A stretch of 64,000 nucleotides of DNA. Source: a bacterium (GTDB taxonomy: Bacteria > UBA8248). The stretch is taken from NCBI GenBank assembly GCA_965199855.1, contig OZ241326.1, positions 2,211,908 to 2,275,907 of the forward strand, read 5' to 3'. Within the stretch, counting starts at the first letter, position 1; every line of letters begins with the position of its first letter. This document shows, piece by piece, positions 9,274 through 50,988 of the stretch. The notes under the pieces are model-generated. The model worked only from the letters and a program-made list of their open reading frames with translations, searched no databases and was not told the origin of the DNA. A program made the position numbers and the translations under genes.

Positions 9274-11076
9274 CTACTCCTTGCCCACGTCCAGAACCGC
9301 CATGAACGCCTCCTGGGGCACCTCGACGGTGCCGATGTTCTTCATGCGCTTCTTGCCCTCGCGCTGCTTTTCCAGCAACTTTCGCTTCCGCGTAATGTCG
9401 CCGCCGTAGCATTTCGCCGTAACGTCCTTCCGCAGCGCGCGAATCGTCTCCCGCGCGATCACCCGGTTGCCGACCGCCGCCTGAATGACCACCTCGAACA
9501 TCTGCTTCGGGATGATCTCCTTCATCTTCCGCACCAGCGCGCGGCCGTGATAATAGGCCTTCTCCTTGTGGATGATGGTGGAAAACGGGTCGATGGGCTG
9601 TCCGTTCAGCAGGACGTCCAGCTTCACCATCTCCGCCGGACGGTAGTCGAGGCGCTCGTAGTCGAAACTCGCGTATCCCCGGGAGGCGGACTTCAGCTTG
9701 TCGTAGAAATCGAAGAGTATCTCGCTGAAGGGCAGCTCATAGACGATCTGCACGGTATTCGTATCGATGTATTCCATGGAGCGCTGCGCGCCGCGCTTCT
9801 CCTGCGCCAGCCTGAGAACGCCGCCCACGTATTCGGCGGGCGCGAGGATGGTGCCCAGAATGAAGGGCTCCTCGATGGCCTCGATTCTCGACAGTTCGGG
9901 CAGCTTCGCGGGACTGTCGATTTCCGCGACCGTCGAATCGCTCAGCAGGACGCGGAAAATCACCGTCGGCGCCGTGATGATGAGCGTGAGGTCGTATTCG
10001 CGCTCGAGCCTCTCGCGGATGATCTCCATGTGCAGAAGCCCCAGGAACCCGCACCGGAAGCCGAACCCCAGAGCGACCGAGGTTTCCGGCTCGTAGGTGA
10101 AGGCCGAATCGTTGAGCCGGAGCTTCTCCAGCGCCGTCCTCAAGTCCTCATACTCGGCGCTGTCCGCCGCATACAGGCCGCTGTAGACCATCGCCTTCGG
10201 CTCCCGGAAGCCCTGAATGGCCTCGCGCGCGGGGTTTTTCGCCAGCGTGATGGTGTCGCCCACCCGGGTGTCGCTCACCTCCCGTATCGAAGCGGACAGG
10301 ATGCCCACCTCGCCCGGCCCGATTTCCTCTCTCCTGATCTCGCGGGGCGTGAACGCGCCCAGACTCAGCACCTGGTATTCCTTGCCGGTGGCCATGAAGC
10401 GGACGCCGTCGCCCTTGCGAATGGTTCCCTCGAACATGCGAAACAGCGGGATGGCGCCCTGGTAGGAATCATACCAGGAATCTATCACGAGCCCCCGCGG
10501 GGAGGCTTCCGGCTCTCCGCCCGGAGGCGGAATCCGCTCCACGATCGCCTCGAGGAGCGCGTCCACGCCCTCCCCCTGCTTCGCGCTCACCGTCAGGCAC
10601 TCCTCCGCGGCGATGCCGATGACGTCCTCCACCTGCCGCATCACGCGATCGGGGTCGGCCGCCGGCAGGTCGATCTTGTTGATCACCGGTATGATGACCA
10701 AGTCCTGCTCCAGCGCCAGATAGGCGTTCGCCATCGTCTGCGCCTGGATGCCCTGGGTGGCGTCAACGAGCAGCAGGGCGCCCTCGCAGGCCTGGAGGCT
10801 TCGGGAAACCTCGTAGCTGAAGTCCACGTGGCCGGGCGTATCGATGAGGTTGAAGACGTATTCCCCGCCCTTCGGCGACCTGTAGAGGATGCGGACCGTG
10901 GCCGCCTTGATGGTGATGCCCCGCTCCTGCTCCAGCGCCATCGAATCCAGCACCTGGGAGGACATCTCGCGCTCTGAAAGCGCTCCCGTCGTTTCGAGAA
11001 TGCGATCCGCCAGGGTGGATTTTCCATGGTCGATATGCGCGATGATGGAAAAGTTTCTGATTCTCTCGATGCTCAC
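9274..11076 (-). CDS. lepA: Elongation factor 4 (LepA).
   Basis: 600 aa. [21 protein letters not shown]-domain, [12 protein letters not shown], and the LepA-specific C-terminal domain. Confidence 0.95.
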
Positions 11077-11362
11077 GGCCGGGAAAAATCTCTCAGGGAA
11101 GGCGAATGGCGCGAATGCCGGAACCGCGTGACGTCAGCTGAAAGCACCGCCCCTCACCTTCGGTTCCCGCGCGGATGACGAAAAGCGACGCCGAAAGAGG
11201 CGCTGAACCCCCCGGCATCGGGCGAACACGCTATATCAGACTTCTCCGCGCCCGGTCAAATGGATTGCCCCCCGGGAACGCGCGGTGCTAGGATGCGCGA
11301 AGGGGCGCGCCTCGCTCACCCGCGCGCATTTCGCACCCGACGGAGCGGGATACCTTCAGCCC

Positions 11363-40566: not shown

Positions 40567-40748
40567 CCCCGAAGCTCCCCGGAGAAGCGAGGCGCGCGCC
40601 GGAATCCCCGGCGAGGCCCGGCGCAATCCCGAATCGCCGGGACGCGGCGCCGCTCCGCCGGGCGCGTTGACACGCAATCGCCGCAGGGTGGATCATGGCG
40701 GGCGTCGAGCGCAACCATCATCCCAAACCAGCCTGCGGGAGCCGCGAG

Positions 40749-41921
40749 ATGAGCCTGCAAACCGAAGCCGCGCTTCAGTTCGACCTGGACGACACGCAAA
40801 AGATGCTTCGCCGGACGGTGCGGGAGCTCTCCGAGCGCCACATCGCCCCGCGCGCCGCCGAAATCGACGAGAACGAGGAATACCCCGAAGACATCTATCA
40901 GATGCAGAAGGAGCACGGCCTCCTCGGCATCTTCTTCCCCGAGGAATACGGCGGCGGCGGAATGGGCTTTCTGGGCGGCTGCGTCGCCATCGAGGAGATC
41001 GCGCGCTTCTGCTCGAACTCCCCGCTCTTCATCGTGCTCAACATGCTCTCGAGCCGCGTCATCGACCTGAGCGGCACGCCGGAGCAGAAGACGCATTATA
41101 TGACGGGCCTCGCCAGGGGCGAACTTCGGGGCTCCTACGCCCTCACGGAGCCCCACGCGGGCTCCGACGCCGGGAACATCCGCACGCGCGCCGTCCGGGA
41201 GGGCGAGGAGTGGGTCATCAACGGGACGAAATGCTTCTGCACGGGACCCGACAAGGCGGACTTCATCACCGTCGCCGCCAAGACCGACCCCGGCGCGGGC
41301 GCGCGGGGCATCACCTACTACGTCGTCCCCACGGACGCGCCCGGCTTCAGCATCGACAAGCACGAGCGCAAGATGGGGATGCGCGGCATCTCGACCTGCA
41401 TGCTGCGCTTCGACAGCGTGGCCGTGCCCCTCGAGAACCAGATCGGCGAGCTGAACCAGGGCTTCAGAACCGCGATGATCGGCTTCAACCAGATGCGGCC
41501 CGCCATCGGCGCGCGCGCGGTCGGCCTCGCCCAGGGGTGCCTCGACTACGCCGCGGGCTACGCGAAGGAGCGCGAGGCCTTCGGGAAGCCCATCGCCCGC
41601 CACCAGGCCGTCCAGTTCATGCTCGCCGACATGTTCATGGACATCGAGGCGTCGCGCCTGCTCGTCTATCGCGCCGCCTCGATGGTGGACGCCGGACAAA
41701 TCGGCAAGGAGAACGCCCGGTATTTCTCGACGGCCAAGACCTACGCGGCCGACATGGCGATGAAGTGCGCGATAGACGGCATCCAGGTGCTGGGCGGGGC
41801 GGGCTACATGAAGGATCACCCGCTCGAGCGCTTCATGCGCGACGCCAAGCAGATCCAGATCGTCGAGGGGACGAGCCAGATTCAGCGGATCATCATCGCC
41901 CGCAACCTGCTCGACCTCTAG
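40749..41921 (+). CDS. Acyl-CoA dehydrogenase (paralog 1).
   Basis: From MSLQTEAALQF… ACAD N-terminal, middle and C-terminal domains (…YALTEPHAGSD…GQKCFCTG…QIVEGTSQIQR…). Confidence 0.85.
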   Translation: MSLQTEAALQFDLDDTQKMLRRTVRELSERHIAPRAAEIDENEEYPEDIYQMQKEHGLLGIFFPEEYGGGGMGFLGGCVAIEEIARFCSNSPLFIVLNMLSSRVIDLSGTPEQKTHYMTGLARGELRGSYALTEPHAGSDAGNIRTRAVREGEEWVINGTKCFCTGPDKADFITVAAKTDPGAGARGITYYVVPTDAPGFSIDKHERKMGMRGISTCMLRFDSVAVPLENQIGELNQGFRTAMIGFNQMRPAIGARAVGLAQGCLDYAAGYAKEREAFGKPIARHQAVQFMLADMFMDIEASRLLVYRAASMVDAGQIGKENARYFSTAKTYAADMAMKCAIDGIQVLGGAGYMKDHPLERFMRDAKQIQIVEGTSQIQRIIIARNLLDL

Positions 41922-41933
41922 GAGCGCGCGGAG

Positions 41934-43103
41934 GTGGGGCCGGGGGCGGAGCCGCCCGCCGCGTTCGGGCTGAGCCGGGCGCAGCGAGCGCTGGGAGAGA
42001 GGGTCTATGCGCTGAGCCGCCGCCGCGTCGCGCCCCGCGCCGCCGACATCGACGAAAGCGGGGAATACCCCGAGGATATTTTCCAGCTCCTGAAGTCCCG
42101 CGGCCTCCTCGGCCTCTACGTCCCCGAAGAATACGGCGGGGCGGGCCTCGGCGTCCTGGAGACGTGCGTCGCCATCGAGCAGATGGCGCGCTTCTGCTCG
42201 AACTCTCCCCTTTTCTTCTCCGTCCACCTGCTCGCCACCCGCGCCGTCGCCATAGGCGGAACCGGGGCGCAGAAGAGCGTCTGGCTCCGCGGCGTAGCCC
42301 GGGGCGAGCTGCGCCCCGCCTTCTCGCTCACCGAGCCGCACGCGGGCTCCGACGCCGCGAACATATCGGCGCGCGCGGCGCGGGAGGGGGACTCGTGGGT
42401 CATCAACGGCCAGAAGTGCTACTGCACCGGCGCGAGCGTCGCCGACTTCCTCACCGTGGCGGCGAAGACCGAGGCCGGGGCGGGGGCGCGCGGCGTCTCC
42501 TTCTTCATCGTTCCCAAGGGCGAATTCCGGGTGGGCCGCCGCGAGAGGAAGATGGGGATGCGGGGAATCCCCACCTGCGAGGTGTTTTTGGAGAACGCCC
42601 ACGTCCCCCTCGAAAACATCATCGGCGATCGGGCGACGGGCTTCAGAACCGCCATGCTCGGCTTCAACCAGGCGCGGCCCGCCATCGGCGCGCGCGCGGT
42701 CGGCCTCGCCCAGGGGTGCCTCGACCACGCCGCGGGCTACGCCAAGGAGCGCGAGGCCTTCGGGAAGCCCATCGCCCGCCATCAGGCCGTCCAGTTCATG
42801 CTCGCCGACATGTTCATGGACGTCGAGGCGTCGCGCCTGCTCGTTTACCGCGCCGCCTCGATGGTGGATAATGGGCGCTATCAAAAGGAGGACGCGCATT
42901 TCATCTGCGCCGCGAAGTGCTTCGCGTCCGACGCGGCCATGAAGGCGGCCGTGGACGCGGTTCAGACCCTGGGCGGGGCGGGCTATACGAGGGATCACCC
43001 GCTCGAGCGGTTTATGAGAGACGCCAAGCAGCTGCAAATCATCGAGGGGACGAACCAGATTCAGCGCATGGCGATCGCCCGGAATCTGCTGGGCCTGAAC
43101 TGA
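41934..43103 (+). CDS. Acyl-CoA dehydrogenase (paralog 2, tandem duplicate).
   Basis: 389 aa. Long stretches identical to paralog 1 (RPAIGARAVGLAQGCLD…AAGYAKEREAFGKPIARHQAVQFMLADMFMD). Confidence 0.85.
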   Translation: MGPGAEPPAAFGLSRAQRALGERVYALSRRRVAPRAADIDESGEYPEDIFQLLKSRGLLGLYVPEEYGGAGLGVLETCVAIEQMARFCSNSPLFFSVHLLATRAVAIGGTGAQKSVWLRGVARGELRPAFSLTEPHAGSDAANISARAAREGDSWVINGQKCYCTGASVADFLTVAAKTEAGAGARGVSFFIVPKGEFRVGRRERKMGMRGIPTCEVFLENAHVPLENIIGDRATGFRTAMLGFNQARPAIGARAVGLAQGCLDHAAGYAKEREAFGKPIARHQAVQFMLADMFMDVEASRLLVYRAASMVDNGRYQKEDAHFICAAKCFASDAAMKAAVDAVQTLGGAGYTRDHPLERFMRDAKQLQIIEGTNQIQRMAIARNLLGLN

Positions 43104-43133: not shown

Positions 43134-43754
43134 ATGAGCCGGACCATTGAAATTCTCACGCCCACCTCGTTCGTCCGCGCGGGCGATCATCCCCTGGCGG
43201 CGCGGCCGGGAGAGCTCGGCGGACTCAGAATCGGCTTTTTCCACAACAACAAGCCGAACGCCGACGCCCTCCTGGAGCGCATCGAGGAGCTCCTCGCGCG
43301 GGAGGACGAAACCCTCCGCTTCGTCCGCTGGGGAAAGCCGAACCCGACGCTGCCGGAGGCGCGCCTCGGCGAGTTCATCAAGCAGGTGGACGCGGCCGTC
43401 TGCGCGGTGGGCGACTGAGGCAGCTGCACGTCGTGGAGTATCCACGACGCGGTGGAGATGGAGAAAGCGGGGATTCCGACGGCCACGTTCTGCTCCAGCG
43501 AATTCTCCGCCCTGGGCGCGAACGAGCGGGTCGCCCTGGGGATGCCGGGCCTTCCGATAGTCGTCGTGCCGCACCCCGTGGGGGGGATTCCGCCCGAACG
43601 GGCGCGCGCCCTGGGGGACGCGGCGCTGGACGAGGTTCGGCGCGTCCTCACGGAGGACGCGGAATCGCTGCGAAGGGAATACCGCGAGCGCGCCTACGCC
43701 CCGCCCCGCCGGACGGTGCGCCACAAGGCGCTTTTCGCCCGGGGGTCGGCGTGA
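43134..43754 (+). CDS. Putative selenoprotein, UGSC-type (UxxC redox motif). The gene reads through an in-frame UGA at 43416..43418.
   Basis: ORFs 43134..43418 and 43452..43754 share one frame, separated only by TGA. Joined, the translation reads …AAVCAVGD-U-GSCTSWSIHDAVEMEKAGIPTATFCSSEF… The TGA is followed after 10 nt by the hairpin CGUCGUGG-AGUAU-CCACGACG. Confidence 0.7.
43428..43449 (+). ncRNA. SECIS-like mRNA hairpin (cis element), 11 nt downstream of the in-frame UGA.
   Basis: Perfect 8-bp stem cgtcgtgg/ccacgacg with a 5-nt loop AGUAU containing GU. Position and size match bacterial SECIS requirements. Confidence 0.6.
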
Positions 43755-43800
43755 GACGCCGGACGGACGGGAGCGCGCGCGGCGCAAGCGGGAGCGCGGC

Positions 43801-44892
43801 ATGAGCGATCCCTCCTCCGAAGCGCCTCCAGAAGCGGCGTCCCTCCCGAGCGAGCGGGTGAAGGTTCGGGACGCGCCCGAGGCGCTCGCGCGTCTCCTCG
43901 AGGCGAGGGGATGGGGCGACGGCCTGCCCGTCGTTCCCCCCACGCCCGGGCGCGTCGCCCGCATGGTGGAGGGGGCGGGGCTGGCCGCTGGGGAGGAAAT
44001 CGGCCGGATGCCGCCCCGCCAGGGAGTCGTCACGGTCGAGGCGCTCGCCGTCAACGCCGTGATGGCCGGATGCCTCCCGGCCTACATGCCCGTTCTCGTG
44101 GCGGCGGCGCGGGGGGCGCTCCAGCCGGAATTCTCGCTCCACGCGCTCCAGGCGACGACCCACCCGGTGGCGCCCCTGATCATCGTGAACGGCCCCGTCG
44201 CCGCGAGAATCGACATGAACGCGGCGTATGGATGCTTCGCCCCCGGAAACCGGGCGAACGCGACGATTGGCCGCGCGATGCGCCTGACGCTCCTGAACGT
44301 AGGCGGGGCGAGCCCGGGCGTTCTGGATCGCGCCACCCAGGGCTCGCCCGCGAAATACGCATTCTGCATCGCCGAGAACGAGGAGGAATCCCCCTGGGAG
44401 CCGCTGCACGTCGAGCGCGGCTTCGCGCCCGGGGAGAGCGCCGTCACGGTCGTGGGCTGCGAGGGGCCCCACAACGTCAACGATCACGTGAGCCACGCGG
44501 CGGAGGGCATTCTCGCCGCCGCCGCCGACACGATGTCCGTCATGGGCGGCAACAACTTCTATCTGAGGGGCGAGCCGCTCCTCGCGCTCGGCCCCGAGCA
44601 CGCGGCGACGATAGCGGGGGACGGGCTGTCGAAGGCGGACGTGAAGCGAAGGATTTTCGAGCTCGCCCGAAAGCCCGCGCGCCAGCTCCGGCGCGGCGCC
44701 ATGTGGGGGATGCAGACCTGGGGGGAGGAGATAGCGAGAAACGAGGGAGATGACGACTACGAGATTCCGCTTCTGGATCGGCCCGAAGACCTCATCGTCA
44801 TCGTGGCGGGCGGCGCCGGCAAGCACTCCTCCTACCTGCCGACGTTCGGCCCCACGCGCTCGGTGACCACCCGGGTCGATTCGCCGGCCTGA
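43801..44892 (+). CDS. Conserved hypothetical protein (363 aa), immediately downstream of the selenoprotein.
   Basis: Clean ORF with normal codon bias. No family recognised with confidence from sequence alone. Confidence 0.55.
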   Translation: MSDPSSEAPPEAASLPSERVKVRDAPEALARLLEARGWGDGLPVVPPTPGRVARMVEGAGLAAGEEIGRMPPRQGVVTVEALAVNAVMAGCLPAYMPVLVAAARGALQPEFSLHALQATTHPVAPLIIVNGPVAARIDMNAAYGCFAPGNRANATIGRAMRLTLLNVGGASPGVLDRATQGSPAKYAFCIAENEEESPWEPLHVERGFAPGESAVTVVGCEGPHNVNDHVSHAAEGILAAAADTMSVMGGNNFYLRGEPLLALGPEHAATIAGDGLSKADVKRRIFELARKPARQLRRGAMWGMQTWGEEIARNEGDDDYEIPLLDRPEDLIVIVAGGAGKHSSYLPTFGPTRSVTTRVDSPA

Positions 44893-45069: not shown

Positions 45070-45471
45070 ATGCCGAAGCAGCAGATCGACTCGGAGAAGG
45101 TGAGGCCGGTGGCCGCGTATTCCACGGGCTGGAAGGTGTCGAACGGGCATCTCGTCATGCTGGCGGGCCAGGTGGCGACCGACACGGAGGGCCGCACCGT
45201 CGGCGGAGACGACATCAAGGCCCAGGCGCGGCAGGTCTATGAGAACGTCAAGGCCGCGCTCGAGGCCGCCGGCGCCGGAATGGAGGACGTCATCCGCCTC
45301 ACCGTCTATCTCACGGATCGGGCGAATTTTCCGGGAAGCGCGGAGGTGCGGCAAGCCTACTTCAGCCCGCCCTATCCGGCGAGCACGCTCCTCATCGTGA
45401 GCGGACTGGCGAACCCGGAATGGCTCATCGAAATCGACGCCGTCGCCTTCGTGGAGGACGGGACGCCGTGA
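45070..45471 (+). CDS. RidA/YjgF/TdcF-family reactive-intermediate (enamine/imine) deaminase.
   Basis: 133 aa. …AAYSTGWKVSNGHLVMLAGQVA… and C-terminal …RLTVYLTD…PASTLLIVSGLANPEWLIEIDAVA match the YjgF signature. Confidence 0.85.
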   Translation: MPKQQIDSEKVRPVAAYSTGWKVSNGHLVMLAGQVATDTEGRTVGGDDIKAQARQVYENVKAALEAAGAGMEDVIRLTVYLTDRANFPGSAEVRQAYFSPPYPASTLLIVSGLANPEWLIEIDAVAFVEDGTP

Positions 45472-46325
45472 GAGGCGGCAGGGCGGTTTCCGAGACGCTC
45501 GTTCTCGTGAAGGGGGGCGGCGACCTCGCCACCGGCGCGGCGCACCGCCTGCGCCGCTCGGGCTTTCCCGTGATGATGACGGAAATCGAGCGTCCGACCA
45601 TGGTCCGCCGCGCCGTCTCCTTCGCCGAATGCCTCTACGCCGGCGAATGGCGGGTGGAGGGCGTGGCTTCCGCGAGGGCGGAGGGCGGCTCCCTGGAGGA
45701 GAAAATCGCCGGCGCGCGCGCGCTGATGGAGGCGGGCGCCGTTCCCGTGATGGTCGATCCGCGCGCCGAGGCGGTCGCCCGCGTCCGGCCCGCCGTCGTG
45801 ATCGACGCGATTCTCGCCAAGCGAAACCTCGGCACCCGCATCGAGGACGCCGAGGTGGTCATCGGCCTGGGGCCCGGCTTCACGGCGGGGGTCGATTGCC
45901 ACGCCGTCATCGAGACCGCCCGGGGGCACGACCTGGGGCGGGTGATACTCGAAGGGGCGGCGAAGCCGGACACGGGCGCGCCGGGCGCCATCGCGGGCTA
46001 CGCCGCCGAGCGGCTGCTGCGCGCCCCGCGCGCCGGCGCGTTCGCCTCCGCCGCCCGCATCGGGGACGCGGTGCGGGCGGGACAGGCCGTCGCCCGGGTG
46101 GACGGGGAGGAGGTGACGGCCCGCATCGACGGCGTCCTGCGCGGCCTGCTCAGGGACGGCATCGAGGTGAGCGCGGGCTTCAAGGTGGGCGACGTCGACC
46201 CCAGGGCCGAGCCTTCCCACTGCGTGACGATATCGGACAAGTCGCGCGCCGTCGGCGGCGGCGCGCTCGAGGCCGTCATGATGTTCCTGTTCGGCGTCTC
46301 CCCGGCCGCGGAGCGCGCGAATTGA
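45468..46325 (+). CDS. YqeB-family protein (selenium-dependent molybdenum hydroxylase system accessory protein).
   Basis: N-terminal LVLVKGGGDLATGAAHRL dinucleotide-fold motif and overall similarity to the YqeB (TIGR03309-type) family. A likely GTG start overlaps the ridA stop (GTGA). The ORF track start 45420 overlaps ridA. Confidence 0.6.
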   Translation: MRGGRAVSETLVLVKGGGDLATGAAHRLRRSGFPVMMTEIERPTMVRRAVSFAECLYAGEWRVEGVASARAEGGSLEEKIAGARALMEAGAVPVMVDPRAEAVARVRPAVVIDAILAKRNLGTRIEDAEVVIGLGPGFTAGVDCHAVIETARGHDLGRVILEGAAKPDTGAPGAIAGYAAERLLRAPRAGAFASAARIGDAVRAGQAVARVDGEEVTARIDGVLRGLLRDGIEVSAGFKVGDVDPRAEPSHCVTISDKSRAVGGGALEAVMMFLFGVSPAAERAN

Positions 46326-47206
46326 GTCCCGACATTCTGGCGGAAACGGTGGAAAGCGGCGCCTACCGCATCGGGCGCAGCGAAATCCCGATCAACCAGG
46401 CGAACGGCAACGCCTTCGTCCCCCCCGCGCAGTTCTATCTGGCGGCGGGCGACGCGCTCGAGCGCATCGCGTGGGCGGTGAGCCAGAACCTCCCCGTCCT
46501 GCTCGTCGGAGAGACCGGCGTCGGCAAGACGCTCTCGGTGCGCTACCTCGCCCACATGACGAACAACGGCTTCAGGCGCGTGAACCTCAACGGCATGACC
46601 ACGGTCGATGAATTCGTGGGCAAGCTGATGATCAACGAGCAGGGCACCTACTGGGTGAACGGCATCCTGATCGACGCGATGCAGTCGGGAGACTGGCTGC
46701 TCATCGACGAGATCAACGCCTGCCTGCCCGAAATCGCCTTCTGCCTCCACAGCCTGCTCGACGACGACCGCATGATCGTCCTCTCGGAGTATGACGGCCG
46801 CGTCGTCAAGCCCCATCCGGACTTCAGGCTCTTCGCCAGCATGAACCCCCACGAGGACAGGAGATACGGCGGCACGAAGCCCCTGAACGAGGCGCTTCTG
46901 GATCGCTTCCCCGTCACCGTGAGGATGGACTACCTGCCCTTCGAGGCGGAGGTCGAGGTCATCATGCGGCAGAGCGGGAACGGCGACGAGGAGCTCGTCC
47001 GGCGCATGGTGCGCGTGGGCCACGACGCGCGCGAGGCCATGAGGAACGAAAAGGTGTTCTGCACCTTCAGCACCCGGCGCCTGATTGACTGGGCGCGCAT
47101 GGCGGCGCGGTTCGACCCCATGGAGGCCGCCGTCTCGACCATCTTCAGCAAGGTCAACTCGTTCGACGCCAAGGTGCTCGAGGACATCGTGGACAACCAC
47201 TTCTAG
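46322..47206 (+). CDS. MoxR/CoxD-like AAA+ ATPase (AAA_5, CbbQ/NirQ/NorQ family).
   Basis: Walker A LLVGETGVGKT, Walker B LLIDEINA, and MoxR-type sensor regions. A probable TTG start overlaps the yqeB stop (TTGA). It lies in the long 45629..47206 ORF. Confidence 0.75.
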   Translation: MSPDILAETVESGAYRIGRSEIPINQANGNAFVPPAQFYLAAGDALERIAWAVSQNLPVLLVGETGVGKTLSVRYLAHMTNNGFRRVNLNGMTTVDEFVGKLMINEQGTYWVNGILIDAMQSGDWLLIDEINACLPEIAFCLHSLLDDDRMIVLSEYDGRVVKPHPDFRLFASMNPHEDRRYGGTKPLNEALLDRFPVTVRMDYLPFEAEVEVIMRQSGNGDEELVRRMVRVGHDAREAMRNEKVFCTFSTRRLIDWARMAARFDPMEAAVSTIFSKVNSFDAKVLEDIVDNHF

Positions 47207-47221
47207 CCGGGAGACGCAGGC

Positions 47222-48991
47222 ATGGAGCGCCGACGCGCCCGCCTCGAGACCCTCGCGCAGGTGACGGCGCGCGACTACGGCCTCGCCCTGCTGTTCGGCT
47301 CCCGGACGGAGACCGGGGACGACGCCGTCCTCGTCGAGGACCCGGAGCGGACCCTGGCGCGCCTGGGCGGCGGCCTCGACGACGAGCGCGTCCTGCGATA
47401 CCAGAAGGGCATGACGCTCATCGAGGTGGCCCGCAGGCTCCAGGGGACGCTTCGCTGGGCGGGCCGCGCGGCCCTCGCCAACCGGGAGACGCCGGGCCTT
47501 TTCCACCTCTGGCGCGCCCTCGAGGACGCCAGATGCGAGAACCGCCTCGCCGAGTCGCTGCCCGGCACGAGAAAGAATTTCCGCGCCTTCGTCCGTCCCG
47601 CGATCGAGGACGCCGAGCGAAGCCACGCGCGGGGGGAGCTCCCCCTGCTTCTCCAGATTCAATGGGGCATCTACCTCGCCGGCGTCGGCCAGACGCCCGG
47701 CGCCGCCTCCTCAAGGCCCGGGGATTTGCCCTCGGCCTGGTTCGATTCCGTCATCGCCCAGATTCTTCAGAGGCTCGTCCCGATCATCGACCGCGCCTGC
47801 GCGGCCAAAGAGCCGAAGACCGCCTTCGACTGCGCGAACGAAATCTACGACGCCGTGCGGCGCTTCCTCACCGAGGAGCAGCTCGCGCAGATGCGCGAGA
47901 GCGAGGAGCTCTCGGAGCTTCCGGATGAAATTCTGGAGAAAATCGAGAACCAGAAACTCCAGGGGGAGGAGTCCGAGTCGCCGGAGGCGCTCCACCCGGA
48001 GGCGCTCGACGAGGTGGACGCGGACGAGGGCGAGCAGGTCGAGCTCACGCCCGAGGAGCTCGCCGCCCTGGGCCGCTGGGCGTCTCCCTGGTTCGAGATG
48101 GAGGGCGGCGGGAAGGAAGTCCACCCGACGGCGGAGCATCCCGACGAGCGCACCATCGTCCTGCCCCCGGAGGGCAAGGCGGAGGAATACGCGGCGATCA
48201 TGGACGGCGCGGGCAGCCACATCAAGGTGCTGGCGTGGAAGCTCACGCAGATCATTCAGGAGAGAGCCTACGCCCGCTTCAGCGGCTCGCACCGCTCCGG
48301 CAAGCTGAACGTCCCGAAGCTCTGGAAGCAGCGCCTGGGCAAATTTCATCTTTTTCACCGCAAGGAGGAGCCCGAGAAGCTCGACGTCTGCTTCACCCTC
48401 CTCGTGGACGAGAGCGGCAGCATGAACCGCGAATCGAAATACGTAGCCGCCAGGGAGGCGACCGTGTTCTTCGCGGAAGTCCTCGACCGGCTGGACGTGC
48501 CCTTCGAGGTGATCGGCTACTCCACCGAGAGCTCGGAGGCGGCCATGGCGGCCGCGCTCGGCCACATCCCCGCCTTCAAGTTCAGGCACATCCGGCACTC
48601 CCCCCTTCAGCACCGCATCTACAAGGGCTTCGAGGACGCCTTCCCCCAGGTCAAGAACCGTCTCGTCAACATTTATCCGCGCTTCAACAACTGGGACGAG
48701 GAGCATCTGCTGTTCGCCTACCGAAGGCTCAGCCAGCGGCCCGAGGAGGAGAAGATCATCATCATCACCTCGGACGGCCAGCCCAACGGCGACGCGGCCC
48801 ACCTCGTGAGCGCGGTCGGCCGCCTCCAGGCGCTCGGCGTGCGGATCATCGGCGTCGGCGTGGTGGACCCCTTCGTCGAGCAGATCTACCCGAACCACAT
48901 CGTGGTGCAGGACCTCTCCCAGCTCTCCACGGAGCTGGTGAACATTCTGCGGCGCGAGCTGCTCGGGGGGGCGGAGGGCCGCCCTTGGTAG
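47222..48991 (+). CDS. von Willebrand factor A (VWA) domain protein, CoxE/NorD-like partner of the MoxR ATPase.
   Basis: 589 aa. C-terminal VWA domain with MIDAS motif (LLVDESGSM…T…SDG). Has the typical MoxR-VWA gene-pair architecture. Confidence 0.8.
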   Translation: MERRRARLETLAQVTARDYGLALLFGSRTETGDDAVLVEDPERTLARLGGGLDDERVLRYQKGMTLIEVARRLQGTLRWAGRAALANRETPGLFHLWRALEDARCENRLAESLPGTRKNFRAFVRPAIEDAERSHARGELPLLLQIQWGIYLAGVGQTPGAASSRPGDLPSAWFDSVIAQILQRLVPIIDRACAAKEPKTAFDCANEIYDAVRRFLTEEQLAQMRESEELSELPDEILEKIENQKLQGEESESPEALHPEALDEVDADEGEQVELTPEELAALGRWASPWFEMEGGGKEVHPTAEHPDERTIVLPPEGKAEEYAAIMDGAGSHIKVLAWKLTQIIQERAYARFSGSHRSGKLNVPKLWKQRLGKFHLFHRKEEPEKLDVCFTLLVDESGSMNRESKYVAAREATVFFAEVLDRLDVPFEVIGYSTESSEAAMAAALGHIPAFKFRHIRHSPLQHRIYKGFEDAFPQVKNRLVNIYPRFNNWDEEHLLFAYRRLSQRPEEEKIIIITSDGQPNGDAAHLVSAVGRLQALGVRIIGVGVVDPFVEQIYPNHIVVQDLSQLSTELVNILRRELLGGAEGRPW

Positions 48992-49011
48992 CGGAAGGCG
49001 GCCTCGCGCGG

Positions 49012-49812
49012 ATGATCGGCGCCCGAGCGGGGCGGATCGTCGCGGCGGTCGGGGCGGGGGGGAAAACGAGCCTGCTCACGGCGCTCGCCCGGGAGTTTCA
49101 CGCCCGAAGCGGCGCGCCCGCCCTCCTCACGACGACCACCAGAATTTTCGCGCCCCTGCCGGAGGAGGGGATTCCCCTCGCCCTGGGCGACGCCGCCGCC
49201 CTCTCGAGGAGGCTGCGCCCCTACATGAGAGCCTGCGGCGTCTCCTGGCTCGCCCGCGGACGCGAGGGCCGCGCGCCGGTTCCGGGCCGGGAGGGCGAGC
49301 GCCGCATGAAGCTGCGCGGCTTCGCGCCCTCCGAAATCGAGGGATTGCGTCTCGCGGAGGGCCTCACCCTCATCGAGGCGGACGGGGCGAGGCGCCTGCC
49401 CGTCAAGGCGCCCGGCGCGCGGGAGCCCGTCCTGCCCGAAGGCGTGGACGCCGTGCTGGGCGTCGTGGGGCTGGACGCCCTGGGCGCGCCCCTGGACGAG
49501 GCCCATGCGTTCCGCCCGGAGCTGCTCTCGCGGATATGCCGCCTGGACGCCGGCGCGGAGATCACGGCGGAGGCGATCGGGGCGCTGTGCGCGCACCCCG
49601 AGGGGCTGTTTCGCAAGGCGGACGGCGGCGCGCGCAGGTGGATCGTCCTCAACAAGGCCGATTTGGAAGCCTCGCTGGAAAAACGAAGAAAGATCGCCTA
49701 TACTATCCGGGAAATGGCGGGAAAGCCCCATGGGCCGGCGGACGGGGTTCTCCTGACCTCCTGCCTGAAGAACAGGCCGGAAGTTTTGCTGCGAATCGGG
49801 CCGGACGCCTGA
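49012..49812 (+). CDS. YqeC-family P-loop protein (probable selenium-dependent hydroxylase accessory protein).
   Basis: 266 aa from MIGARAGRIVAAVGAGGKTSLLTALA… with a P-loop GAGGKTS. Matches the YqeC (TIGR03172-type) family. Confidence 0.65.
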   Translation: MIGARAGRIVAAVGAGGKTSLLTALAREFHARSGAPALLTTTTRIFAPLPEEGIPLALGDAAALSRRLRPYMRACGVSWLARGREGRAPVPGREGERRMKLRGFAPSEIEGLRLAEGLTLIEADGARRLPVKAPGAREPVLPEGVDAVLGVVGLDALGAPLDEAHAFRPELLSRICRLDAGAEITAEAIGALCAHPEGLFRKADGGARRWIVLNKADLEASLEKRRKIAYTIREMAGKPHGPADGVLLTSCLKNRPEVLLRIGPDA

Positions 49813-49842
49813 GAGGAGGCGGCCCGCCTGCGCGGAGGAGAG

Positions 49843-50988
49843 ATGAGCGAGGACGTTTTCAGGGAAATGGCGAGGATGAAGGAGAAGGGGCAGGCGGGCG
49901 CGCTCGCCACCGTCGTGGCCCGCAAGGGCTCCGCGCCCATGAGCGGCGACGCGAAGATGCTCGTGCGCGAGGACGGCAGCGCCGAGGGCACCGTCGGGGG
50001 CGGCTGCCTGGAGGCCGAGGTCTGGGAGACCGCGATGAGCGTCCTCGAAACGGGCGCGCCCGAGAAGCTCTCCTTCGACCTCACCCAGAAGGAGGCGGAG
50101 GACAGCGGCCACATCTGCGGCGGCGTGGTGGAGATACTGGTGGAGCCGCTCCGGGCGTTTCCCCGGGAGCTGCTCGATGAGATCAACCGCGTGAAAAACC
50201 GGGGCGGAAGTGCCGCGCTGGCGACCATCGTCCAGCCGGGGGCGCTCGACATCCCGAAGCCCGAGGCCGGGAAAATGCTCTTCAGGCGCGACGGCAGCTC
50301 CGTGGGGGAAATTCCGCGCTATTCGGCGGAAGTCTGGGCGGAGAGCGCGCAGGTGATTCGCCAGGGCAGCCCCACCCTCCTGCACTTCAGCCAGGGCGCC
50401 GCGCGCGGCGGAGGAAAGAAGCCCGCGCCCGGCGAGGCGACCGAAATTTTCGTGGAGCCCATCTCCGGCCAGCCGCTCGTCTATATCTTCGGCGGCGGGC
50501 ACGTATCCTTCTGCGTCGCGCAGGCGGCCTGGCTCGCCGGCTTCCGGGTCGCCATCGTGGAGGACAGACCCTCCTTCGCCAACAAGGAGCGCTTCCCGAT
50601 GGCCGAGGCGTTCCACGTGGGCGATTTCCCGGAAGTTTTCAGGGAAATTCCGGTGGACGAGGCGGACTACCTGGCCATCATCACCCGGGGCCACGCGAAC
50701 GACGAGGTCGTCCTCGAATGGGCGATGAAGACGAAGGCGCGCTACATCGGGATGATCGGCTCGAAGAGCAAGGTGCTGCTCACCTACCGCCATCTTCAGG
50801 AGAAGGGCTTCGCGCGGAGCGAGCTCATCGAGCGCGTCCACGCGCCCATCGGCCTGGACATCGGCGCCGACACGCCGGGCGAGATCGGAATCGCCATCGC
50901 CGCCGAGTTCGTCCGCCATCGCCGCCGGGGCGAGGCGGAAAGCGAGGGCGCGGGCAGCAAGCGGGTGCGCCTGGGAAGAAAGGCGTAA
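49843..50988 (+). CDS. xdhC: XdhC/CoxI-family molybdenum hydroxylase maturation factor.
   Basis: 381 aa. XdhC_CoxI N-terminal domain (…ALATVVARKGSAPMSGDAKMLV…GTVGGGCLE…) plus a Rossmann-like XdhC_C (…VYIFGGGHVS…). Confidence 0.8.
   Translation: MSEDVFREMARMKEKGQAGALATVVARKGSAPMSGDAKMLVREDGSAEGTVGGGCLEAEVWETAMSVLETGAPEKLSFDLTQKEAEDSGHICGGVVEILVEPLRAFPRELLDEINRVKNRGGSAALATIVQPGALDIPKPEAGKMLFRRDGSSVGEIPRYSAEVWAESAQVIRQGSPTLLHFSQGAARGGGKKPAPGEATEIFVEPISGQPLVYIFGGGHVSFCVAQAAWLAGFRVAIVEDRPSFANKERFPMAEAFHVGDFPEVFREIPVDEADYLAIITRGHANDEVVLEWAMKTKARYIGMIGSKSKVLLTYRHLQEKGFARSELIERVHAPIGLDIGADTPGEIGIAIAAEFVRHRRRGEAESEGAGSKRVRLGRKA

What the first reader, a model, noticed from the sequence alone, without database searches (positions are those of the whole stretch)
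43801..44892. Unassigned 363-aa protein sandwiched between the selenoprotein and the RidA/YqeB genes
Well-formed ORF, same strand, 47 nt after the selenoprotein. I could not place it in a known family from sequence alone. Its position makes it a guilt-by-association candidate for the selenium/Moco-related function of the cluster.
Basis: inference. Interest (0 to 1): 0.5.

Follow-up and report, generated by a model that had tools for sequence, protein, structure and literature searches.

The report
Obligate partner of UGSC selenoprotein
This 363-residue protein is a real gene from a very large, unnamed family with no solved structural relative, and it is almost always encoded next to, or fused with, the UGSC selenoprotein, so the two probably form one enzyme of unknown substrate rather than anything to do with molybdenum cofactor.

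Summary
The ORF (43801-44892, +, 363 aa) is real and strongly conserved. It has no Pfam, NCBIfam or PDB sequence match, and its confident AlphaFold model (pLDDT 88) has no whole-fold match in the PDB.

It belongs to a large family: 7,550 clusters at 50% identity, in Bacteria and Archaea, named 'hypothetical protein' wherever a source names it.

Linkage to UGSC holds in both directions:
- 76 of 80 genome loci found through this protein carry a UGSC gene or domain beside it; the other four are cut by a contig end.
- 65 of 79 metagenome loci found through UGSC alone carry this protein beside it; the other 14 have too little flanking sequence.
- About a third of the best 150 family representatives are in-frame UGSC fusions, in both orders.

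Rarer fusions join the module to disulfide reductases: target + thioredoxin-reductase-like, ferredoxin:thioredoxin-reductase catalytic domain + target, and TrxR-like + UGSC(Sec) in Blastococcus.

UGSC is remotely homologous to selenoprotein B of the glycine/proline reductases.

RidA and YqeB are neighbours only in the closest relatives (2 of 80, 0 of 79).

Best reading: the large substrate-binding subunit of a two-part selenol/thiol oxidoreductase of unknown substrate. The partnership is well supported; the chemistry is inferred.

The parts
43801..44892 (+). The finding: a 363-aa protein from a large family not covered by Pfam or NCBIfam. It is the proposed large (substrate-binding or catalytic) subunit that partners the UGSC selenoprotein. 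Strictly or almost strictly conserved residues are D40, T48, C91, N153, R158, K185, C189, E192 and W199.
   Evidence: ORF. No family or PDB hit. Homologues. Conservation. AF2 model with pLDDT 88 and pTM 0.89. No fold match.
43790..43794 (+). GGGAG ribosome-binding-site-like motif, 6 nt before the ATG of the target.
   Evidence: Read directly from the sequence.
43134..43754 (+). UGSC-family selenoprotein, 206 codons including one in-frame UGA. It is the proposed small redox subunit carrying Sec-Gly-Ser-Cys.
   Evidence: Translation. PF24696 at 2e-47 and NF041046 above cut-off. Remote similarity to GrdB-type selenoprotein B across the Sec region.
43416..43418 (+). In-frame TGA read as selenocysteine, the U of UGSC.
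   Evidence: The equivalent codon is TGA in 74 of 81 genome-locus copies and 82 of 82 metagenome-locus copies.
43429..43449 (+). SECIS-like hairpin CGUCGUGGA-GUA-UCCACGACG, starting 11 nt after the UGA.
   Evidence: Centroid structure. The z-score of the whole 61-nt segment is only -1.4, so the support comes from position and perfect pairing, not from energy statistics.
40695..43103 (+). Two tandem acyl-CoA dehydrogenase paralogues (40695-41921 and 41934-43103), tightly spaced upstream (gaps of 12 and 30 nt). They are probably in the same transcription unit in this lineage but are not a conserved part of the module.
   Evidence: Pfam. A promoter-like site lies at 40667-40696. ACAD lies within 3 kb in only 8 of 80 loci.

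Best explanation
The protein is the dedicated partner of the UGSC selenoprotein encoded 46 nt upstream. The two form one enzyme, as two subunits here and as a single fused polypeptide in many other organisms.

UGSC is a flavodoxin/Rossmann-like alpha/beta domain. It presents Sec-x-x-Cys at the N-terminus of a helix and is a remote homologue of the Sec-bearing part of selenoprotein B of the glycine, sarcosine, betaine and D-proline reductases.

The 363-aa protein supplies the larger, family-specific domain. Its invariant polar residues (D40, N153, E192; R158, K185, T48, W199) and two highly conserved cysteines (C91, C189) would form the substrate site.

Reducing equivalents would reach the Sec/Cys centre, and possibly the C91/C189 pair, by thiol-disulfide exchange. 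The donor would be a thioredoxin-reductase-type flavoprotein or, in some lineages, a ferredoxin:thioredoxin-reductase-type module. In this genome it is presumably the general thioredoxin system.

The enzyme would then reduce a small organic substrate. The variable neighbours suggest a carboxylic acid or acyl-CoA-type catabolic intermediate, which here may be linked to the two acyl-CoA dehydrogenases upstream.

Shown: the partnership, the fusions, the remote GrdB homology of UGSC, and the absence of any known family or fold for the target. Inferred: that the pair is a reductase, the electron path, the roles of individual residues, and the substrate class.
For: 1. Forward linkage. 76 of 80 genome loci found through the target have a UGSC gene or domain adjacent. 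The other 4 begin at a contig end.
2. Reverse linkage. Of 79 metagenome loci found with a UGSC-only peptide pattern, 59 have the target directly downstream and 6 more have it adjacent. The remaining 14 have at most 861 nt of sequence on that side.
3. Rosetta-stone fusions among the best 150 representatives at 50% identity:
- 30 UGSC C-half plus target, called from just after the Sec codon;
- at least 16 full-length UGSC-target;
- at least 7 in the reverse order, for example P0149, which ends '...AIGD' exactly at the Sec codon.
4. A natural 561-aa fusion models as one unit with pTM 0.89 despite an 18-residue disordered linker.
5. Fusions to disulfide-reductase modules:
- P0177 is target plus a Pyr_redox_2 TrxR-like domain with a CAVC motif (E 6e-41);
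- P0228 is FeThRed_B plus target (E 2e-21);
- Blastococcus L037 has TrxR-like (CAGC) plus UGSC including the TGA in one frame, followed by the target;
- a trxB-like gene sits in the same operon in Variovorax sp. SRS16 and next to the pair in L125, L033, L051 and L065.
6. 14 of 20 diverse UGSC sequences individually hit TIGR01917 (GrdB), best E 9.5e-6, always across the Sec region. 9 hit TIGR01918, and 7 each hit GrdF and GrdH.
7. The characterised precedent is a Sec subunit acting on a substrate held by a separate partner subunit, as in PrdB/PrdA (PMC11229817).
8. The family behaves like a substrate-specific catalytic family. It is large (7,550 clusters). There are several paralogues and tandem pair arrays per genome. 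Neighbours are variable and catabolic: TctC in 19 loci, SDR 14, CoA-transferase III 10, ECH 9, ACAD 8, MmgE/PrpD 6 of 80.
Against: - No activity, complex or cofactor has been shown for any member.
- The target has no detectable similarity to PrdA/GrdE or to any other family, so the Grd/Prd analogy rests on the small subunit only.
- Neither cysteine is universal. C91 is Ala in 7 of 142 sequences and C189 is L, A, V or F in 11 of 142.
- The target keeps its whole conserved core in fusions and pairs where the UGSC motif has lost Sec and Cys (IGGS, IGAA, SGVY, DSGV, GSS, GTS). At least some members therefore cannot depend on a Sec/Cys centre in UGSC.
- TrxR or FTR association is seen in only a few percent of loci, and none is near the pair in this window.
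- The catabolic neighbour families are abundant in these genomes, and no enrichment test against a background was done.
- The UGSC pattern used for the reverse test was derived from UGSC genes that sit next to the target, which could bias it towards partnered UGSCs.
Confidence: 0.6

Rival explanations
1. The protein takes part in the selenium-dependent molybdenum-hydroxylase or Moco maturation function of the downstream genes (YqeB, MoxR/CobS-like AAA, CobT/vWA-like, YqeC, XdhC-related).
For: It is on the same strand as, and about 0.2-6 kb upstream of, RidA, YqeB (TIGR03309 at 4e-104), YqeC (TIGR03172 at 2e-48) and an XdhC-related factor. The arrangement recurs in L006 and L007.
Against: RidA and YqeB are neighbours in only 2 of 80 genome loci, both 81-84% identical relatives, and in 0 of 79 metagenome loci. 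The distance to RidA varies from 177 nt to 1.5 kb even among those relatives. The family is abundant in genomes and contexts with no such genes.
Confidence: 0.04
2. The target is a non-redox enzyme, such as a hydro-lyase, isomerase or racemase acting on a small carboxylate. UGSC would be a structural or regulatory subunit, or would supply a nucleophile or acid-base residue rather than electrons.
Confidence: 0.2
3. The pair is a true Grd/Prd-type pyruvoyl reductase. The target would be a proprotein that self-cleaves before a conserved cysteine (G90|C91 or F188|C189) to create a pyruvoyl group. That group binds an amine substrate, whose C-N bond is then cleaved by the Sec of UGSC.
For: UGSC is remotely homologous to GrdB-type proteins. 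The precedent is PrdA cleaved at C421 only when complexed with PrdB (PMC11229817). C189 follows the only low-confidence loop of the model, residues 175-184. RidA, an imine/enamine deaminase, and amidohydrolases or amidases recur nearby.
Against: Neither cysteine is universal, and the replacements (Ala, Leu, Val, Phe, Ile) cannot form a pyruvoyl group. There is no similarity to PrdA/GrdE (no Pfam hit for 40 members at E<=10). No PrdH-like maturase was noticed as a conserved neighbour.
Confidence: 0.08
4. The target is not catalytic. It is a chaperone, scaffold or maturation factor needed to fold, protect or load the UGSC selenoprotein.
For: Genetic linkage and fusion are obligate.
Against: It is larger and far more conserved than its supposed client: 69 invariant columns, many of them charged or polar. 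It occurs as tandem target-target proteins and with UGSC domains that have no Sec or Cys to protect. It shows paralogue expansion with diverse catabolic neighbours.
Confidence: 0.06

Closest known systems
D-proline reductase PrdA/PrdB and protein B of glycine/sarcosine/betaine reductase (GrdB with GrdE)
   Same: In both, a small Sec subunit with a U-x-x-C motif works with a separate, co-encoded larger subunit that holds the substrate. The oxidised Se-S centre is regenerated by a thiol or flavoprotein system. UGSC shows weak but consistent sequence similarity to GrdB-type selenoprotein B across the Sec region (mechanism from PMC11229817).
   Different: The large subunit here has no detectable similarity to PrdA/GrdE and no universally conserved cleavage-site cysteine. 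No GrdA, GrdC or GrdD equivalents are present. Hosts are largely aerobic or facultative Proteobacteria, Actinobacteria, Chloroflexi and haloarchaea rather than amino-acid-fermenting Firmicutes. The pair is frequently fused.
'Unknown_1' domain fused to the UGSC-containing protein (Zhang and Gladyshev 2008, PLoS Genet, PMC2398784)
   Same: That paper reports a conserved domain of unknown function fused to UGSC in ocean metagenomes. This is most probably the same family.
   Different: The published alignment is held only as an image, so identity could not be verified. [quoted passage not shown] Here the family is very large (7,550 clusters), is an obligate neighbour as well as a fusion partner, and the UGSC model is Rossmann/flavodoxin-like.
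Thioredoxin reductase / thioredoxin / terminal thiol-dependent reductase relays, and ferredoxin:thioredoxin reductase
   Same: There are modular fusions and operons joining TrxR-like or FTR catalytic modules to UGSC or to the target. The redox motif sits at a helix N-terminus.
   Different: UGSC is not a thioredoxin-fold protein in the model. The terminal component belongs to no known reductase family.
Class I (Fe-S) fumarate hydratase alpha subunit and the chorismate-mutase/YjgF-like fold
   Different: TM is about 0.3. There is no sequence similarity, only two conserved cysteines instead of three cluster ligands, and no whole-chain superposition.

Membership tests
UGSC-partner family (probably 'Unknown_1' of Zhang and Gladyshev 2008) | Encoded adjacent to, or fused with, a UGSC-family (seleno)protein | tested here: met
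   In the window UGSC ends 46 nt upstream. 76 of 80 genome loci show the link and 65 of 79 show it in reverse; the rest are truncated. Fusions are listed.
UGSC-partner family (probably 'Unknown_1' of Zhang and Gladyshev 2008) | Family signature motifs: GW-DGLP-VPPT, NAVMAGC, QATTHP, RANATIGRA, FC-AENE and GG-G-HS | tested here: met
   All are present in the window protein and are invariant or nearly so in A1 and in 142 full-length domains.
UGSC-partner family (probably 'Unknown_1' of Zhang and Gladyshev 2008) | Sequence identity of this family with the published 'Unknown_1' alignment | not testable with these tools
   Figure S1A is held only as an image.
PrdA/GrdE pyruvoyl proproteins (Pfam Gly_reductase) | Sequence similarity to the family model | tested here: not met
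   No Pfam or NCBIfam hit at E<=0.1 for the target. No such hit for any of 40 members at E<=10.
PrdA/GrdE pyruvoyl proproteins (Pfam Gly_reductase) | Strictly conserved cysteine at an internal self-cleavage site | tested here: not met
   C91 is conserved in 135 of 142 (7 Ala) and C189 in 131 of 142 (L, A, V, F). P0221 has Ile at position 91.
PrdA/GrdE pyruvoyl proproteins (Pfam Gly_reductase) | Fold similarity to PrdA/GrdE, and presence of a pyruvoyl group | not testable with these tools
   No solved PrdA or GrdE structure turned up in the PDB searches, and the AlphaFold-database library was unavailable. Chemistry needs experiment.
Selenium-dependent molybdenum hydroxylase maturation cluster (YqeB/YqeC/XdhC) | Conserved genomic linkage to yqeB/yqeC | tested here: not met
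   YqeB and RidA lie within 3 kb in 2 of 80 genome loci, both close relatives, and in 0 of 79 metagenome loci.
Class I Fe-S fumarate hydratase / Fe-S hydro-lyase alpha | Whole-domain fold match and three cysteine ligands for a [4Fe-4S] cluster | tested here: not met
YjgF/RidA / chorismate-mutase-like fold | Sequence or structural membership | tested here: inconclusive

The most novel reading that the evidence does not exclude
UGSC plus this protein is a previously unrecognised, very widespread class of two-component (or fused) selenoenzymes with a new catalytic fold. It would be a mainly aerobic, catabolic counterpart of the Stickland glycine/proline reductases. It would use a Sec-x-x-Cys subunit fed by thioredoxin-reductase-type modules to cleave or reduce bonds in small organic acids or acyl-CoA-type compounds. 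[quoted passage not shown]
Probability: 0.35. Interest if true: 0.8.

Novelty: new variant of a known kind. Interest (0 to 1): 0.6.

Why it matters
[quoted passage not shown] Reviews up to 2026 still give it no function.

UGSC is never alone. It has an obligate partner that is larger and much more conserved, has no family name and no solved homologue, and is repeatedly fused to disulfide-reductase modules. That turns a lone redox motif into a defined enzyme system that can be tested.

Cys-form pairs exist in cultured organisms and can be expressed without selenocysteine machinery:
- Variovorax sp. SRS16, with trxB in the same operon;
- Natrinema zhouii and Natrialba asiatica;
- Mycobacterium gordonae;
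- a Sphingomonas MAG (L035).

Related copies whose Sec or Cys state was not checked occur in Paracoccus versutus and, as a 561-aa fusion, in Vibrio europaeus.

For annotation, the result shows that this gene should not be labelled as Moco-related, and it flags a large family that deserves a Pfam or NCBIfam model.

Tried and rejected
- Pfam and NCBIfam scans of the target gave nothing at E<=0.1, and 40 members scanned at E<=10 gave nothing consistent.
- PDB sequence searches with the single sequence and with a profile gave only chance hits: neuroligin and timeless.
- The AFDB50 library was unavailable.
- Scanning divergent and fused paralogues to find a bridging family showed only the UGSC domain.
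- The 2008 supplement could not confirm 'Unknown_1' because the figure is an image.
- The PrdH paper's supplement is not held, so no PrdA sequence was available for a profile-profile test.
- A compensatory Cys relocation (C91A with D176C) was tested and rejected: they are different sequences.
- Co-loss of the target cysteines with loss of the UGSC Sec/Cys motif was not seen.
- No terminator or structured RNA was found in the 177-nt gap after the gene.
- There is no tRNA-Sec or any other tRNA in the window.
- There is no second copy of the family and no TrxR- or FTR-like gene in the window.

Full report
THE OBSERVATION

The window has an uninterrupted ORF at 43801-44892 on the + strand: ATG start, 363 codons, TGA stop. 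A GGGAG motif lies 6 nt before the ATG.

The gene upstream (43134-43754) is one reading frame with a single in-frame TGA at 43416-43418, in the sequence ...AVCAVGD-U-GSCTSWSIHD.... With U written as C it matches Pfam UGSC (PF24696, 2e-47) and NCBIfam NF041046 above its curated cut-off. A perfect 9-bp hairpin starts 11 nt after the UGA, where a bacterial SECIS is expected.

Downstream lie RidA (45070-45471), YqeB (45420-46325, TIGR03309 4e-104), a MoxR/CobS-like AAA protein, a CobT/vWA-like protein, YqeC and an XdhC-related factor. Upstream of UGSC are two tightly spaced acyl-CoA dehydrogenase paralogues. On the other strand are an amidohydrolase and a DAHP synthase.

The gap to UGSC is 46 nt, not 47.

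IS IT REALLY UNASSIGNED?

Yes.
- There is no Pfam-A or NCBIfam hit at E<=0.1.
- When 40 family members were scanned one by one at E<=10, no family was hit by more than two of them.
- PDB sequence searches with the protein and with a 40-sequence profile gave only chance matches.

An AlphaFold2 model built on the alignment is confident: mean pLDDT 88.0 and pTM 0.89, with one disordered loop at 175-184.
- Foldseek against the PDB gives nothing better than the class I fumarate hydratase alpha subunit, at probability 0.75 and TM 0.29-0.34.
- The AlphaFold-database library was not available.

On present evidence the domain has no solved homologue.

THE FAMILY

The protein is not an orphan.
- A word-indexed search scored 7,991 homologues among 8,000 candidates. 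None carried a precomputed Pfam domain, and every one that a source named was called 'hypothetical protein'.
- A profile search of 1.84 billion representatives found 7,550 clusters at 50% identity with E<=1e-3, and 2,284 with E<=1e-30.

Hosts include Acidimicrobiales, Dehalococcoidia, Binatia, Methylomirabilota/Rokubacteria, Alpha-, Beta- and Gammaproteobacteria, Acidobacteriota, Mycobacterium gordonae, Blastococcus, Sphingomonas, Natrialba asiatica and Methanobacterium.

RefSeq plasmids and secondary replicons of cultured Natrinema, Halalkalicoccus, Haloterrigena, Paracoccus versutus, Variovorax, Arthrobacter, Roseovarius and Vibrio europaeus also carry it. It is annotated there as 'hypothetical protein', in Natrinema zhouii beside a gene annotated 'UGSC family (seleno)protein'.

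Conservation is striking. 69 columns are invariant among 40 sequences reaching down to 54% identity. Over 142 full-length domains:
- D40, N153 and E192 never vary;
- R158 is kept in 141, W199 in 140, T48 in 139 and K185 in 137;
- C91 is kept in 135 and C189 in 131.

WHAT IS IT LINKED TO?

I searched six-frame translations of the 80 genome loci with the window's neighbouring proteins.
- 76 loci have a UGSC gene or domain beside the target. The other four start at a contig end right at the target.
- RidA, YqeB and the amidohydrolase appear only in L006 and L007, which are 81-84% identical relatives.
- ACAD appears in 8 loci.

An undirected clustering of all neighbouring ORFs gave the same answer: UGSC is the only universal neighbour. 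The rest are variable catabolic genes:
- TctC/Bug binding proteins in 19 loci
- SDR in 14
- family III CoA-transferase in 10
- enoyl-CoA hydratase in 9
- ACAD in 8
- MmgE/PrpD in 6
- DUF6282 in 6
- amidase, MaoC, luciferase-like and TrxR-like in 4 each

For the reverse test I built an alignment of UGSC C-halves and scanned metagenome contigs with the UGSC-only pattern GSCT[ST][WC][SC][VIL]H. Of 79 loci:
- 59 have the target family directly downstream on the same strand;
- 6 more have it adjacent, either upstream or with a second UGSC copy;
- the other 14 have at most 861 nt of sequence on that side;
- none has YqeB or RidA.

One caveat applies. The pattern came from UGSC genes that are themselves partnered, so it could favour partnered UGSCs.

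FUSIONS

Many family members are longer than 363 aa. The best 150 representatives break down as follows:
- 74 are stand-alone.
- 30 are ORFs that start just after the Sec codon and run through the UGSC C-half into the target domain.
- At least 16 are full-length UGSC-target proteins.
- At least 7 have the reverse order. P0149 ends '...AVVTAIGD', exactly where the Sec codon would be.
- 6 are tandem target-target(-target) proteins.

A more divergent subfamily (L025, L045, L051, L077) is fused in the same way.

Zhang and Gladyshev (2008) reported a 'UGSC/Unknown_1' fusion in ocean metagenomes (PMC2398784). This is very probably the same domain, but their alignment is held only as an image.

LINKS TO REDOX MODULES

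Three further architectures point to thiol-disulfide chemistry.
- P0177 is the target domain followed by a thioredoxin-reductase-like flavoprotein (Pyr_redox_2, 6e-41, with a CAVC motif).
- P0228 is a ferredoxin:thioredoxin reductase catalytic domain (FeThRed_B, 2e-21) followed by the target domain.
- In Blastococcus sp. CT_GayMR19 (L037) one reading frame encodes a TrxR-like protein (CAGC), then the UGSC N-half, the TGA and the UGSC C-half. The target gene comes next.

Separate TrxR-like genes also occur with the pair.
- One lies directly upstream of the pair in L125, and others are nearby in L033, L051 and L065.
- In Variovorax sp. SRS16 the operon reads trxB-like, TctC, SDR, target, UGSC (Cys form, MCGSCT).

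These associations are rare, a few percent of loci, and none occurs in this window.

THE PARTNER

At the U position the codon is TGA in 74 of 81 genome-locus copies, with 6 Cys codons and one TAG. It is TGA in 82 of 82 metagenome copies. This fits the 255 Sec against 21 Cys forms reported in the GOS data.

Of 20 diverse UGSC sequences scanned individually against NCBIfam:
- 14 hit glycine reductase selenoprotein B (TIGR01917, best E 9.5e-6);
- 9 hit the general selenoprotein B model;
- 7 each hit the sarcosine and betaine forms;
- all hits run across the Sec region.

UGSC is therefore a remote, much shorter relative of the Sec subunit of the Stickland reductases. In D-proline reductase that subunit (PrdB, U151) attacks a substrate held on the separate PrdA subunit, and the two subunits must be complexed for maturation (PMC11229817).

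INTERPRETATION

The best-supported statement is that this protein and UGSC are two parts of one enzyme. I put confidence in that at about 0.9.

That the enzyme is a selenol/thiol-dependent reductase fed by thioredoxin-reductase-type donors is an inference. It rests on the Sec-x-x-Cys motif, the GrdB homology and the fusions. I put it at about 0.55-0.6.

The target would supply the substrate site. The invariant D40, N153 and E192, with R158 and K185, suggest binding and acid-base chemistry on an anionic small molecule. C91 and C189 may form a redox pair or act as nucleophiles.

Three observations limit this reading.
- Neither Cys is universal.
- The target keeps its full core where UGSC has lost both Sec and Cys.
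- The target has no similarity to PrdA or GrdE.

The substrate is unknown. The neighbours suggest carboxylic acids or acyl-CoA intermediates, but I ran no background-corrected enrichment test.

RIVALS
- A non-redox hydro-lyase or isomerase with UGSC as an accessory subunit remains possible (about 0.2).
- A true pyruvoyl Grd/Prd-type mechanism is unlikely because the candidate cysteines are replaceable by Ala, Leu, Val or Ile (about 0.08).
- A purely chaperone role is unlikely given the conservation pattern, the tandem domains and the paralogue expansion.

NOVELTY AND VERDICT

The gene itself is an ordinary member of a large family that is already in the databases as 'hypothetical'. A fusion of UGSC to an unknown domain was noted in 2008. 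No function, family model or structure exists.

The following are not described in the literature I could search:
- the obligate two-way linkage;
- the size and breadth of the family;
- the Rossmann-like rather than Trx-like UGSC model;
- the fusions to TrxR and FTR modules.

I rate it a new variant of a known kind: a Grd/Prd-like two-part selenoenzyme with an unrelated large subunit. Interest is 0.6.

Noticed in passing
window 43134-43754: The UGSC selenoprotein gene is split by automatic gene callers at its Sec codon into 94-aa and 98-aa ORFs, as in the gene calls on L001 and L002 for the identical sequence. The SECIS-like hairpin lies at 43429-43449.
   Followed up: partly
window 45420-50988: A full set of selenium-dependent molybdenum-hydroxylase maturation genes lies downstream: YqeB, a MoxR/CobS-like AAA protein (about 46325-47206), a CobT/vWA-like protein (47222-48991), YqeC (inside ORF 48235-49812) and an XdhC-related AOR maturation factor (49843-50988). 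The hydroxylase itself was not looked for.
   Followed up: partly
window 45420-45471: The listed YqeB ORF overlaps the end of RidA by 52 nt. The TIGR03309 match starts at residue 28 of that ORF, so the true YqeB start is probably further downstream.
   Followed up: no
window 40695-43103: Two tandem acyl-CoA dehydrogenase paralogues sit directly upstream of UGSC, with 12-nt and 30-nt gaps and a promoter-like site at 40667-40696. This arrangement is conserved only in close relatives (L001, L006, L007).
   Followed up: partly
L037 5809-8945 (Blastococcus sp. CT_GayMR19): A thioredoxin-reductase-like flavoprotein is fused in frame to a Sec-containing UGSC domain, followed by the target gene and then a second, divergent target paralogue at 10260-11228.
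   Followed up: partly
L025 193-1605, L045 11841-13229, L051 12274-13686, L077 3442-4863 (-): A divergent subfamily with the motif U-GSCTPAV(V/L)RAS has the UGSC C-half running straight into a target-like domain, about 470 aa after the Sec. It often sits in the same locus as canonical pairs.
   Followed up: partly
L083, L085, L041, L051, L071, L080: Single loci hold arrays of two to four UGSC-target pairs or paralogues. One Chloroflexi MAG (JACPQD01) contributes four separate loci.
   Followed up: no
genome loci L006-L085: One UGSC copy has TAG rather than TGA or a Cys codon at the U position. It could be a pseudogene, a sequencing error or something else. The locus was not identified.
   Followed up: no
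L165 7069-7902 and six genome loci (L018, L020, L025, L033, L042, L051): DUF6282 (PF19799) recurs immediately beside the pair, mostly in haloarchaea and Chloroflexi. It may be a third component in some lineages.
   Followed up: no
L167 3004-8291 (Vibrio europaeus plasmid pVEu): A 561-aa UGSC-target fusion lies between aconitase X plus its DUF126 small subunit and an extra enolase copy. This hints at a hydroxy-acid or amino-acid pathway.
   Followed up: no
P0145, P0170, P0184, P0292; L068, L072, L078: Some UGSC domains, fused or separate, have lost both Sec and Cys (IGGS, IGAA, SGVY, DSGV, GSS, GTS), while the target domain keeps every conserved residue.
   Followed up: partly
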